Positions 61,198-62,910 of a stretch of 64,000 nt of DNA are shown in pieces. The notes under the pieces are model-generated. The model ran no database searches, was not told the origin of the DNA, and saw only the letters and a list, made by a program, of their open reading frames with translations. Where the stretch lies: positions 62,344-126,343 of the IMG/VR virus record IMGVR_UViG_3300046694_000196. The stretch is one strand, 5' to 3'. Every line of letters starts with the position of its first letter. Within the stretch, counting starts at the first letter, position 1. The position numbers were made by a program, and so were the translations under genes. This DNA is from a virus.

Positions 61198-61275
61198 ACC
61201 TTTCCAGAGTGCTCACAGCAACTCAACAATTTCATTGGCGAAAACCCGGGTGACACCGGAGCACTCTGGAAAGGT
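61198..61275 (+). ncRNA. ACAGCA-motif hairpin RNA B
   Basis: 17-bp perfect IR ACCTTTCCAGAGTGCTC / GAGCACTCTGGAAAGGT with ACAGCAA opening the loop. Confidence 0.65.
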
Positions 61276-61407
61276 CCTAACAGCAGAAACCGCTATGTAA
61301 GACCGGAGCCTTCGGGCAACTGCAGGTGCGAGTCCTGCCGACCGTCCCATCCTATGACGGTCGTGGCGAAACCAGTAGACGCGCCGGTAGCAAAAGAACG
61401 GACCTTG
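61271..61407 (+). ncRNA. YrlA/Y-RNA-like RNA: ACAGCA stem plus circularly permuted tRNA domain
   Basis: AAGGTCC/GGACCTT terminal stem; ACCGG/CCGGT; V arm GCC-TTCG-GGC; T arm GCAGG-TGCGAGT-CCTGC; closed acceptor CGACCGTC-CCATCCTAT-GACGGTCG; D arm GCG-AAACCAGTAGA-CGC. Confidence 0.75.
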
Positions 61408-61411
61408 CAGT

Positions 61412-61473
61412 AACCAGCCTGCGAGTTACATGCCAGATTTCACACGAAACGCGGTGTAACTCGCAGGCTGGTT
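61412..61473 (+). repeat. 19-bp perfect inverted repeat hairpin just upstream of the Ro-like gene
   Basis: AACCAGCCTGCGAGTTACA / TGTAACTCGCAGGCTGGTT. Confidence 0.75.
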
Positions 61474-61500
61474 CGTCTTGAATTGAGAGGGAACATCGAC

Positions 61501-62910
61501 ATGAACGCACTCGCGCAGGCACTCACCCGGGACTCTACCACCACGCTCACCGAGAACGGCGACAAGACGTACAGCACGTCCCTGGACGCCTGCGTGGACC
61601 TGTTCTTCAAGGTCGGCGCCGTCCGCGGACAGGGCGCCGGCCGTGTCACTTCCCTGTTCGACGCGGCCTACGCGCAGGACCCCGACCTCGCGTCGAGGAT
61701 CATGCTCTGGGCACGCGACGTGCGCGGGGGCGCCGGCGAGCGCCAGGTCTTCCGTGACGTGCTGGTACACCTTGAGCGCCGCGACCCGACCCGCCTGGCC
61801 CGAGTGCTCCCGTCAGTGCCGGCAGTCGGCAGGTGGGACGACCTGTTCGCGCTCACTTCCGAGGCCGGCAAGACCGCGGCGTACGCCATGTTCGCCTACG
61901 CCCTCCACGACGGCCAGGGACTCGCTGCGAAGTGGGCCCCTCGCGAGTCGTCAAAGAACCGGGCATTCGCCAAGGGCCTCCGTGAGTTCATGGGACTCAC
62001 CCCGCGTGACTACCGCAAGATGGTGTCGCGCCTGTCTGACACGGTCGAGCAGAAGATGTGCTCCCGCGATTGGTCAGCGATAGAGTTCTCGCGGGTCCCG
62101 TCCGTGGCCGCGGCCCGCTACTCGAACGCGTTCCTCAAGAGGCAGCCCGAGCGCTACGCGGAGTTCACTGCGGCCGCACTCAGGGGCGAAGAAAAGATCA
62201 ACGCCGGGGCTCTGTTCCCGTACGACGTCACCAAGTCAAGCGTGGACAGGGCGACCGCTGACGCACTCTGGGCATCTCTGCCAGATTACGTCCCGGAAGG
62301 GGTCTCCTTCCTGCCCGTGGTAGACGTCTCGGGGTCGATGACCTCGATGGTGGGTTCTTCGGGCGTGTCGTGCCTCGACGTGGCGGTCTCGCTGGGCATC
62401 TACCTGGCCGAGCGCAACAAGTCGGCGTTCGAGGGCCTCGGAGTCACGTTCACTTCTGTACCGACTCTCTTCAGGGTCCCGAAGACCTCCAGCATACGCG
62501 ACCGAGTGAACTACGTCACGGGCCGGGACTGGGGAATGTCTACGGACCTGGACGCCGCGATGCAGCTGATAGTCACCACCGCGGTAGAGAACGACGTGCC
62601 GGCGAGTGACGTGCCCAAGTTCCTGATAGTCATAAGCGACATGGAGTTCGACTCCGGCTGTGAACACGGCAAGACGTCAGCGTCTGAGCGCACGAAGTCC
62701 TACTTCGAAGCGGCGGGCTACGACGTACCGGGCATCGTCTGGTGGAACGTCGAGTCACGGGGAGACACGACCCCTGTCCGCTACGACGAGAGCGGCATGG
62801 TGCTGGTGTCGGGCCTCTCGCCCGCAGTAGTAAAGTCAGTGCTGGGCGGGGACGTCAACCCGGTCTCGGCCATGCTCAAGACCGTCATGGTGGAGAGATA
62901 TGACCACTGA
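61501..62910 (+). CDS. Ro60/TROVE-like RNA-binding protein with C-terminal vWA domain (DUF2828-type)
   Basis: LTENGDKTYSTS...DLFF...ARDVRGGAGER...GRWDDL...AAKWAPRE...FSRVPS; MIDAS VVDVSGSM, WGMSTD, ISDMEFD, VWWNV. Confidence 0.8.
   Translation: MNALAQALTRDSTTTLTENGDKTYSTSLDACVDLFFKVGAVRGQGAGRVTSLFDAAYAQDPDLASRIMLWARDVRGGAGERQVFRDVLVHLERRDPTRLARVLPSVPAVGRWDDLFALTSEAGKTAAYAMFAYALHDGQGLAAKWAPRESSKNRAFAKGLREFMGLTPRDYRKMVSRLSDTVEQKMCSRDWSAIEFSRVPSVAAARYSNAFLKRQPERYAEFTAAALRGEEKINAGALFPYDVTKSSVDRATADALWASLPDYVPEGVSFLPVVDVSGSMTSMVGSSGVSCLDVAVSLGIYLAERNKSAFEGLGVTFTSVPTLFRVPKTSSIRDRVNYVTGRDWGMSTDLDAAMQLIVTTAVENDVPASDVPKFLIVISDMEFDSGCEHGKTSASERTKSYFEAAGYDVPGIVWWNVESRGDTTPVRYDESGMVLVSGLSPAVVKSVLGGDVNPVSAMLKTVMVERYDH

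What the first reader, a model, noticed from the sequence alone, without database searches (positions are those of the whole stretch)
61271..62910. Candidate phage Ro60-Y RNA ribonucleoprotein system linked to RNA repair and tRNA defence
Seen: a 469-aa helical plus vWA (DVSGS MIDAS) protein immediately downstream of Y-like RNAs, at the end of an array of about 25 tRNAs, in a genome segment that also has Rnl1/Pnk, an Rnl2-like ligase, PTH2, YqeY and many tRNA-like decoys. Established: Ro60/TROVE proteins bind Y RNAs, handle damaged structured RNA with PNPase and co-occur with RNA repair genes. Inference: a phage RNP that protects, sorts or repairs cleaved tRNAs, or sponges anticodon nucleases during infection. 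The assignment of DUF2828-type proteins as Ro60 homologs is from motif recall and needs a structural check.
Basis: partly seen in the sequence, partly recalled or inferred. Interest (0 to 1): 0.88.

Follow-up and report, generated by a model that had tools for sequence, protein, structure and literature searches.

The report
Phage Ro60-like protein with handle RNAs
A soil phage encodes a protein predicted to fold like the ring-shaped RNA-binding protein Ro60, preceded by three small RNAs that share one conserved "handle" and carry tRNA look-alike parts; the pairing recurs in hundreds of phages, I found no paper describing it, and it is probably a second kind of Ro/Y-RNA particle.

Summary
ORF 61501-62910 (469 aa) is a DUF2828+DUF7788 protein with a complete, invariant MIDAS. 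Its AlphaFold model (pLDDT 93) matches Xenopus Ro60 over 415 residues (Z 22.5), far above proteins that share only the vWA domain (Z 10.5 or less). Pfam TROVE does not match, so the homology is visible only at fold level.

Upstream lie three RNAs, A (60952-61077), B (61206-61267) and C (61271-61406). Each is closed by a 7-bp helix followed by NN-ACAGCA(A/G). C has the YrlA layout: V, T arm, loop-closed acceptor, D arm. A carries an initiator-like anticodon hairpin.

In 96 non-redundant relative loci, ACAGCAA occurs 102 times on the gene strand and 0 times on the opposite strand within 1 kb upstream. 74 loci have a closed handle, and all seven helix pairs covary. Cultured Felixounavirus, Listeria, Staphylococcus, Mycobacterium, Campylobacter, Bacillus, Aeromonas and Sinorhizobium phages have it too.

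The handle replaces YrlA's GNCGAA motif and resembles dictyostelid Class I RNAs. Binding and function are inferred, not shown. The link to RNA repair is loose.

This scan has noted the same pairing on many other genomes (AI notes, unpublished). I found no published description. Verdict: a new variant of the Ro60-Y RNA kind.

The parts
57474..60856 (+). tRNA block that ends just before the handle RNAs. It holds 12 ARAGORN tRNAs plus 3 Rfam-only tRNA-like genes, all on the gene's strand.
60952..61077 (+). Handle RNA A. Helix AGGATAG/CTATCCT, linker AA, ACAGCAA at 60961-60967. The cargo includes hairpin ACGGG-CTCATA-CCCGT (61028-61043), which resembles an initiator-tRNA anticodon arm. A lies upstream of the promoter, so it is probably transcribed with the tRNA block.
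   Evidence: (14.4 bits). Conserved in L008. The phiM19 counterpart at L001 4065-4145 carries CTCATAA.
61089..61117 (+). Sigma-70-type promoter TTGACA-17-TATACT (11 of 12), conserved in the relative L008. It probably drives B, C, D and the gene. No terminator-like site lies between 60500 and 63100.
61198..61277 (+). Handle RNA B. Core helix AGAGTGC/GCACTCT at 61206-61267, linker TC, ACAGCAA at 61215-61221, small inner hairpin. The helix can extend to 17 bp (61198-61277) and then overlaps the 5' strand of C.
   Evidence: (20.5 bits, E 0.0047). Rfam Dicty_Class_I_RNA gives 20.1 bits.
61271..61406 (+). Handle RNA C, a tRNA-body mimic with the YrlA layout. Helix AAGGTCC/GGACCTT; ACAGCAG at 61280-61286; helix ACCGG/CCGGT (61302-06 with 61384-88); V hairpin 61308-17; T arm 61322-38 with loop TGCGAGT; acceptor 61339-46 with 61356-63, closed by loop CCATCCTAT; D arm 61366-82; A-rich 3' loop.
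   Evidence: (18.0 bits). Orthologues in L008 and phiM19/phiN3 have different but fully paired helices.
61412..61473 (+). Hairpin D. A perfect 20-bp stem with no handle and CGAA in its loop. It is absent from the closest relative and its role is unexplained (RNase III site or 5'-UTR structure?).
61501..62910 (+). Gene for the Ro60-like protein (469 aa). The DUF2828 helical (HEAT/TROVE-like) part covers about residues 1-260. The DUF7788 vWA part covers about residues 271-451. The MIDAS DVSGS lies at 62323-62337.

Best explanation
The 469-aa protein is a remote, fold-level relative of Ro60: a HEAT-repeat ring closed by a vWA domain with a MIDAS. It most likely binds the small RNAs encoded beside it through their shared handle. 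The handle is a 7-bp clamp helix that joins the RNA's two ends, two linker nucleotides, an unpaired ACAGCAA, and a G after the 3' strand. The result would be a Y-RNA-like particle.

Each RNA carries a different cargo on the same handle. C carries a tRNA body whose acceptor end is closed by a loop and which has no anticodon. A carries an initiator-like anticodon arm. B carries a short hairpin.

By analogy with Ro60/Y RNA/PNPase and with Thermus phage phiLo Ro60, the particle probably presents tRNA-like bait to, or tethers, an enzyme that acts on tRNA or structured RNA. Candidates are an exoribonuclease, an anticodon nuclease or a repair enzyme. That would shape RNA turnover in the infected cell.

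Shown here: the predicted fold, the gene-RNA linkage, motif conservation, helix covariation and promoter synteny. Inferred: binding, stable accumulation of the RNAs, and every step of function.
For: Fold. The model has pLDDT 93.4 and pTM 0.92. The 12 best Foldseek entries are all Ro60/TROVE, with E 9e-10 to 2e-5. VIA-align gives Z 22.5, rmsd 3.8 A and 415 aligned residues to Xenopus Ro60; Z 17.0 to phage phiLo Ro60; Z 14.5 to Rsr. Matches to the vWA domain alone reach 10.5 at most. The MIDAS is invariant.

Linkage. ACAGCAA occurs 102 times on the gene strand and 0 times on the other strand in the 1 kb upstream of 96 non-redundant loci. Of 239 motif copies, 175 are closed by a perfect 7-bp helix, against 52-60 in controls. 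74 of 96 loci have at least one handle. In the 126-kb contig the only three proper handles sit at 60952-61406.

Model searches. My model gave 118 hits on the gene strand and 0 on the other. The acceptor helix was not modelled, yet it is closed by 7-8 bp in most of the strong hits. Cells paired reach 98.8% and the covariation score is 0.807 against 0.221 for shuffles, with 0 of 500 shuffles as high.

Known models. Rfam YrlA hits relatives' copies below threshold, with E 6e-5 to 0.03.

Independence from tRNAs. 32 handle loci have no tRNA nearby. The DUF2828 gene is the only constant neighbour across isolated phages of eight host genera.

Precedent. Chen 2014 (PMC4201824) and Hu 2025 (PMC12135203).
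Against: No binding or expression data exist for any member. There is no significant sequence match to TROVE or to solved Ro60 structures. The canonical Ro-binding motif GNCGAA is absent from the handles. The window's own RNAs score weakly with my model (14-20 bits). C has a degenerate T loop (TGCGAGT) and a D loop without GG. In 33 loci a roughly 50-nt handle hairpin ends within 40 nt of the start codon, which fits cis-regulation equally well. The homolog in phage CBB was detected in virions (PMC5259590), which could point to a structural role.
Confidence: 0.7

Rival explanations
1. The handle hairpins are cis-acting signals and not stable trans-acting RNAs. They could be operator sites through which the protein represses its own mRNA, or processing punctuation for the tRNA/DUF2828 transcript.
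For: 33 loci have a roughly 50-nt handle hairpin ending within 40 nt of the start codon. In Vibrio phage loci the hairpin abuts the start. B, C and D share one promoter with the gene and no terminator intervenes. All 294 tRNAs in the relatives' flanks lie on the gene's strand.
Against: Most loci have 2-5 handles of distinct size classes (about 55, 100-125, 160 and 230 nt) with elaborate conserved cargo such as complete tRNA bodies. A simple operator does not need that. In several phages the handles lie downstream of the gene or more than 1 kb away, as in phiM19. The conserved termini (helix starting AG, ending CU, then G) resemble the mature ends of dictyostelid Class I RNAs. This reading still requires the protein to bind the handle, so it partly overlaps the main one.
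Confidence: 0.15
2. The protein uses its vWA/MIDAS face for protein ligands, for example as a virion or assembly component. The ACAGCAA hairpins are then bound by another factor.
For: CBB_183, a homolog 42% identical, was found in purified virions with 8 peptides (PMC5259590). vWA domains are typical protein-binding modules.
Against: No other gene is constant next to the hairpins across the isolated phages I looked at. The whole Ro60 ring is kept, not only the vWA domain. Basic residues in the helical part are invariant: R42, R72, R81, K144, R148, R172. Presence in virions does not exclude an RNA-bound, injected particle.
Confidence: 0.08
3. Element C is a working, circularly permuted tRNA gene that is processed into a normal tRNA.
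For: C has a T arm, a D arm, an 8-bp acceptor helix and an encoded CCA in permuted order.
Against: There is no anticodon loop. The anticodon-stem position continues into the handle. The T loop is TGCGAGT and the D loop lacks GG. ARAGORN and Rfam tRNA do not call it. Relatives close the acceptor with loops as short as 4 nt and without CCA.
Confidence: 0.02

Closest known systems
Ro60/Rsr with Y RNAs. This covers bacterial and phage YrlA (Rfam RF02553; Chen et al. 2014, PMC4201824), Thermus phage phiLo Ro60 with Yrl1/Yrl2 (Hu et al. 2025, PMC12135203), and the Salmonella rsr-yrlBA-rtcBA operon.
   Same: The predicted fold is a ring plus vWA with a MIDAS. The small RNA genes lie on the same strand next to the protein gene. 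The RNA ends are joined by a stem with a conserved unpaired motif beside it. One RNA per locus has a tRNA-like domain in the order V, T, closed acceptor, D. There is a loose neighbourhood with RNA ligases.
   Different: The protein belongs to other Pfam families (DUF2828/DUF7788), with no significant sequence match to TROVE. The conserved RNA motif is ACAGCAA, not GNCGAAN0-1G or GGUCCGA. Arrays hold up to 7 RNAs with varied cargo. The Rfam YrlA model does not reach threshold on relatives and does not hit the window's copy at all.
Class I RNAs of dictyostelid social amoebae (Rfam RF01414; Kjellin et al. 2021, PMC7919456)
   Same: The RNAs are about 50-60 nt. A short covarying stem joins the ends. 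The conserved motif lies directly 3' of the 5' stem strand, and its invariant positions (T3, C6, C9, A10, A11) fit NNUNACAGCAA. The conserved termini (AAG at the start, CUGU at the end) fit the phage pattern: helix starting AG, ending CU, then GU. In five whole phage genomes the best RF01414 hits are the handle hairpins beside the DUF2828 gene.
   Different: All phage hits are below the Rfam threshold (at most 29.8 bits against 41.5). Class I RNAs are eukaryotic, have their own upstream promoter element, and their known direct binder is an RRM protein. Whether Dictyostelium has a DUF2828 protein was not testable here.
Annotation practice for DUF2828 proteins: PHROG 850 'RNA-binding protein' and the actinobacteriophage label 'Ro-like RNA binding protein'
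   Same: This is the same protein family (phrog_850 E 1e-149; Mycobacterium phage Zakai gp55).
   Different: These labels name the protein only. None of the records I opened annotates a partner RNA. Some handle RNAs are annotated as tiny hypothetical CDSs or as a tRNA.

Membership tests
Ro60 / TROVE protein family | HEAT-repeat toroid closed by a C-terminal vWA domain | tested here: met
   For the predicted structure only. Z 22.5, rmsd 3.8 A, 415 of 469 residues aligned to 2i91_A and 1yvp_A, spanning model residues 9-452. The 12 best Foldseek entries are all Ro60/TROVE.
Ro60 / TROVE protein family | MIDAS motif (DxSxS...T...D) in the vWA domain | tested here: met
   D275, S277, S279, T348 and D380 are invariant in 66 homologs.
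Ro60 / TROVE protein family | Sequence membership: Pfam TROVE PF05731 and vWA_Ro60 PF25045 | tested here: not met
   There is no TROVE hit at E<=1. vWA_Ro60 gives E 0.046 and 14.1 bits against a cut-off of 27.7. There is no TROVE match in the contig. A profile of the family against PDB Ro60 chains gives E 0.4-0.6.
Ro60 / TROVE protein family | Binds Y RNA on the outer rim and misfolded RNA ends in the central hole | not testable with these tools
   This needs EMSA, RIP or a structure.
YrlA-type Y RNA (Rfam RF02553) | Encoded within 4 kb of the Ro60-type gene, on the same strand | tested here: met
   C ends 94 nt before the start codon, on the + strand.
YrlA-type Y RNA (Rfam RF02553) | Module order: terminal stem, V, T arm, closed acceptor-like stem-loop, D arm | tested here: met
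   with the layout taken from Chen 2014. The T and D loops of the window's copy are degenerate. They are canonical in L008.
YrlA-type Y RNA (Rfam RF02553) | GNCGAAN0-1G motif near the 5' end | tested here: not met
   ACAGCAG/ACAGCAA stands in its place in the window and in 175 handles of relatives.
YrlA-type Y RNA (Rfam RF02553) | Reaches the Rfam gathering score (69 bits) | tested here: not met
   No hit on C at E<=5 or E<=10. Relatives score 24-38 bits.
Dictyostelid Class I RNA (Rfam RF01414) | Short terminal stem plus adjacent 11-nt motif, with conserved AAG...CUGU termini | tested here: inconclusive
   The pattern is shared. B scores 20.1 bits. Phage relatives score up to 29.8 bits with E 5.8e-5 per genome. 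All are below the 41.5-bit threshold.

The most novel reading that the evidence does not exclude
The handle (clamp helix, ACAGCAA, CU-G tail) is the universal ligand of DUF2828 proteins. It turns one Ro-like ring into a display platform for exchangeable RNA cargo. In phages the cargo is tRNA parts: a closed tRNA body and an initiator-like anticodon arm. These would serve as bait for host tRNA-targeting nucleases or tRNA enzymes. The unexplained Class I RNAs of Dictyostelium would be the eukaryotic branch of the same particle. The particle may even be packaged into virions and delivered on infection.
Probability: 0.2. Interest if true: 0.92.

Novelty: new variant of a known kind. Interest (0 to 1): 0.8.

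Why it matters
Ro60-Y RNA particles are a classic but still poorly understood RNA-surveillance system. In phages they are known only for the TROVE family, which a 2014 survey found in 22 phages.

Here a second, sequence-unrelated but fold-related family has its own RNA signature and a modular set of tRNA-like cargo RNAs. It is present in 710 deposited phage genomes, including model phages of Salmonella, Listeria, Staphylococcus, Mycobacterium and Campylobacter.

Four things would follow.
- DUF2828 would get a function.
- Dozens of unannotated or mis-annotated intergenic tracts next to phage tRNA arrays would be explained.
- The system would be genetically tractable in cultured phages, which allows direct tests of what Ro-type particles do during infection.
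- The orphan Class I RNAs of social amoebae would get a candidate partner family.

Tried and rejected
- Megablast of the locus against phage records gave no match.
- phmmer of the protein against PDB sequences gave no hit at E<=10.
- Rfam at gathering and at E<=5 on the window gave only tRNAs and noise in the finding's region.
- A pattern scan of viral contigs for the ACAGCA...T-arm motif returned only the two contigs I already held plus a chance match in a giant-virus bin.
- MAFFT alignments of the tRNA-like RNAs misaligned the acceptor region. I therefore left the acceptor out of the model and checked it separately.
- Low-scoring hits of my model (below about 32 bits, with NCCA spacers) are tandem ordinary tRNAs, not handle RNAs.
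- Sequencing runs: no RNA holder is listed. The only holder is a rhizosphere metagenome DNA run that may be the source of this contig. I therefore laid no reads.
- The ESM Atlas returned only the protein's own family.
- Literature searches for DUF2828, for ACAGCAA with phage and hairpin, and for Ro-like/vWA/tRNA-like terms found no description of the RNA partner. Subscription journals are not covered.
- PTH2 was not found in the 50 ORFs I scanned.
- Permuted functional tRNA: rejected, see the rival explanations.
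Full report
**What is there.** The window is the last 64 kb of a 126-kb IMG/VR phage contig. Its only sequencing-run holder is a rhizosphere metagenome. An ORF runs 61483-62910 from a TTG. The ATG at 61501, preceded by GAGAGGGAA, gives 469 aa and equals a database protein (P0002).

Pfam finds DUF2828 (E 1e-29) and DUF7788 (E 4.5e-40). VWA_2 and vWA_Ro60 appear only below threshold (E 0.046), and TROVE does not appear. 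PHROG 850, 'RNA-binding protein', matches end to end (E 1e-149).

tblastn finds the family in 710 deposited phage genomes. They include Felixounavirus, Listeria, Staphylococcus, Mycobacterium, Campylobacter, Vibrio, Bacillus and Enterococcus phages. The best match is Sinorhizobium phage phiM19 at 53% identity.

**The fold test.** I used an alignment of 66 homologs, in which D275, S277, S279, T348 and D380 (a full MIDAS) are invariant. AlphaFold2 gave pLDDT 93.4 and pTM 0.92.

The 12 best Foldseek entries in the PDB are all Ro60/TROVE: Thermus phage phiLo, Xenopus, human and Deinococcus Rsr, with E 9e-10 to 2e-5. Only then come plain vWA domains.

VIA-align gives Z 22.5, rmsd 3.8 A and 415 aligned residues to Xenopus Ro60, spanning residues 9-452 of the model. 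It gives Z 17.0 to phiLo Ro60 and Z 14.5 to Rsr. Matches to the vWA domain alone stop at 10.5.

At sequence level nothing is significant. The protein is therefore a fold-level Ro60 relative, not a TROVE family member.

**The RNAs in the window.** The tract between the last tRNA-like gene (60784-60856) and the gene folds much better than shuffles (z -7.05). It contains three elements with one design. A 7-bp helix joins the two ends. Two linker nucleotides follow, then ACAGCA(A/G), then a variable interior. A G follows the 3' strand.
- **A (60952-61077)** carries a hairpin ACGGG-CTCATA-CCCGT like an initiator-tRNA anticodon arm.
- **B (61206-61267)** has a helix extendable to 61198-61277.
- **C (61271-61406)** is described in the next section.

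Across the whole 126-kb contig these are the only proper handles.

A sigma-70-type promoter, TTGACA-17-TATACT (61089-61117), lies between A and B. No terminator-like site follows. The promoter and elements A, B and C are syntenic in the closest relative (68% protein identity, L008 and L003). There the clamp helix of C covaries: AAGGTCC/GGACCTT in the window against GAGGTAC/GTACCTC.

A fourth element, D (61412-61473), is a perfect 20-bp hairpin without a handle. It is unique to this phage and I cannot explain it.

**C is a tRNA mimic of the YrlA type.** Read 5' to 3', C has:
- the handle helix and motif;
- a helix ACCGG/CCGGT in the anticodon-stem position;
- a V hairpin;
- a T arm (GCAGG-TGCGAGT-CCTGC);
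- an 8-bp acceptor helix whose 3' strand comes first and is joined to the 5' strand by the loop CCATCCTAT;
- a D arm;
- an A-rich stretch and the closing handle strand.

This is the V-T-AS-D order that Chen et al. 2014 described for YrlA. The window's copy is degenerate in its T and D loops, and Rfam YrlA does not hit it. The orthologue in L008 has canonical TTCGATT and AGTGGCA loops. Rfam YrlA does hit the corresponding RNAs of more distant relatives over the full model, below threshold (38.1 bits, E 6e-5; 36.7; 32.6; 30.6).

**The pairing is general.** I collected 17 viral and 80 metagenomic loci encoding relatives and nine loci from isolated phages.

- **Motif counts.** In 96 non-redundant loci, the heptamer ACAGCAA occurs 102 times on the gene strand and 0 times on the opposite strand in the 1 kb upstream. 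That is 1.28 per kb, against 0.06-0.19 per kb in the gene body and beyond 1 kb.
- **Helix closure.** Starting from the motif alone, 175 of 239 copies are closed by a perfect 7-bp helix that begins 2 nt upstream. Shifted or shuffled controls give 52-60. 74 of 96 loci have at least one handle, usually 2-5 in tandem. Size classes lie near 55, 100-125, 160 and 230 nt.
- **Helix consensus.** The helix is A-U, G-C, G-C or A-U, A-U or U-A, U-A, then two free pairs. G, U, U follow the 3' strand.
- **Covariance model.** I built a model on the handle, T arm and D arm only. It gave 118 hits on the gene strand and none on the other strand in 651 kb.
- **Independent check.** The acceptor helix was not modelled. 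It is nevertheless closed by 7-8 bp in most of the strong hits.
- **Covariation.** In the 28 strongest hits, 98.8% of cells pair. 14 of 16 pairs show double-sided changes, including all seven handle pairs. The covariation score is 0.807 against 0.221 for shuffles (0 of 500 as high) and at most 0.135 for slid partners. The alignment was fitted to the model, which favours it.

Isolated phages of eight host genera carry handles beside the gene: Felixounavirus, Listeria LP-125, Mycobacterium Zakai, Staphylococcus S-CoN_Ph5, Campylobacter F365, Bacillus MrDarsey, Aeromonas 4_4572 and Sinorhizobium phiM19/phiN3. Otherwise the gene neighbourhoods are unrelated, so the DUF2828 gene is the only constant partner.

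**How far the tRNA and repair link goes.** 47 of 96 loci have tRNA genes in the held flanks. All 294 of these tRNAs are on the gene's strand. But 32 handle-bearing loci have none.

RNA ligase or kinase genes lie within 3 kb in only about 7 loci, plus CBB, where a ligase lies two genes upstream, and Listeria, where RtcB lies about 1.3 kb downstream.

In this window, Rnl1 and the kinase lie 5 kb upstream, the Rnl2-type ligase 12.5 kb upstream and YqeY 39 kb upstream. The link to RNA repair is real at genome level but loose.

**Comparison with known systems.** Phage Ro60-Y RNA systems are published for TROVE proteins. Chen 2014 reported them for 22 phages. Hu 2025 showed that phiLo Ro60 binds two upstream Yrl RNAs and host PNPase. 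A jumbo-phage survey notes ROT/TROVE proteins among RNA-repair genes. DUF2828 proteins are already labelled 'Ro-like' in some annotations.

I found no description of the RNA partner: the ACAGCAA handle, its covarying clamp and its modular tRNA-part cargo. The library does not cover subscription journals.

The handle resembles dictyostelid Class I RNAs. Both have a short terminal stem, an adjacent 11-nt motif whose invariant positions fit NNUNACAGCAA, and AAG...CUGU termini. The Rfam Class I model, run over five whole phage genomes, puts its best hits on the handle hairpins beside the DUF2828 gene. Scores reach 29.8 bits and E 5.8e-5, below the 41.5-bit threshold.

**Earlier notes of this scan.** They report the same DUF2828-ACAGCAA pairing on many other genomes. 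I reached the pairing from this window's data before reading them. I took the Class I lead from one of them and tested it partly.

**Mechanism.** The best reading is a Y-RNA-like particle. The ring protein holds the handle, and the cargo presents tRNA-like surfaces. By analogy, the particle tethers, gates or decoys an enzyme that acts on tRNA or structured RNA.

Binding, RNA stability and function are all inferred. A cis-regulatory role for the hairpin nearest the start codon is a live, partly compatible alternative. A homolog in phage CBB was detected in virions by mass spectrometry (8 peptides). This raises the possibility that the particle is delivered with the genome.

**Verdict.** The Ro60 assignment is supported at fold level. 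The RNAs are real, conserved and Y-like, but they form a new class. The proposed tRNA-defence function is untested.

Noticed in passing
window 61412-61473: A perfect 20-bp hairpin (D) lies between RNA C and the ribosome-binding site. It has no ACAGCAA handle and has CGAA in its loop. It is absent from the 68%-identical relative L008. Possible roles are an RNase III site or a 5'-UTR structure.
   Followed up: partly
window 61028-61043; L001 (phiM19) 4065-4145: Handle RNA A carries ACGGG-CTCATA-CCCGT, and the same hairpin sequence is present in L008. The phiM19 counterpart carries a CTCATAA loop. These look like Met/initiator-tRNA anticodon arms grafted on a handle.
   Followed up: partly
window 63861-63934; L008 5998-6072; L001 9665-9740; L004 3231-3307; L007 7199-7276: A suppressor-type tRNA lies 0.6-2.3 kb downstream of the DUF2828 gene in this whole phage lineage. 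Its anticodon is CUA in the window and L008, and UUA in the phiM19/phiN3 group.
   Followed up: no
L105 (Mycobacterium phage Zakai) 4533-4657: The annotated tRNA-Thr (4534-4604) lies inside a handle RNA that my model scores at 56 bits. It may be a handle-tagged tRNA body and not an ordinary tRNA.
   Followed up: partly
L001 (phiM19) 4087-4206; L106 (Staphylococcus phage S-CoN_Ph5) 4519-4608: Tiny 'hypothetical protein' CDSs are annotated over handle RNAs. These are probably mis-annotations of RNA genes.
   Followed up: no
L110 (Pectobacterium phage CBB) 2438-3952: The DUF2828 homolog CBB_183 is listed among virion proteins found by mass spectrometry (8 peptides, 23.6% coverage; PMC5259590). 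An RNA ligase gene lies two genes upstream.
   Followed up: partly
33 relative loci, e.g. L028 2197-2251, L069 2932-2985: A roughly 50-nt handle hairpin ends within 40 nt of the DUF2828 start codon. This may be an autoregulatory operator.
   Followed up: partly
window 42439-42933 and L001 4726-5289: A Macro (Appr-1-p processing) domain gene is present in this phage. In phiM19 one lies 0.7 kb upstream of the DUF2828 gene. The product of such enzymes is linked to tRNA splicing and repair chemistry.
   Followed up: no
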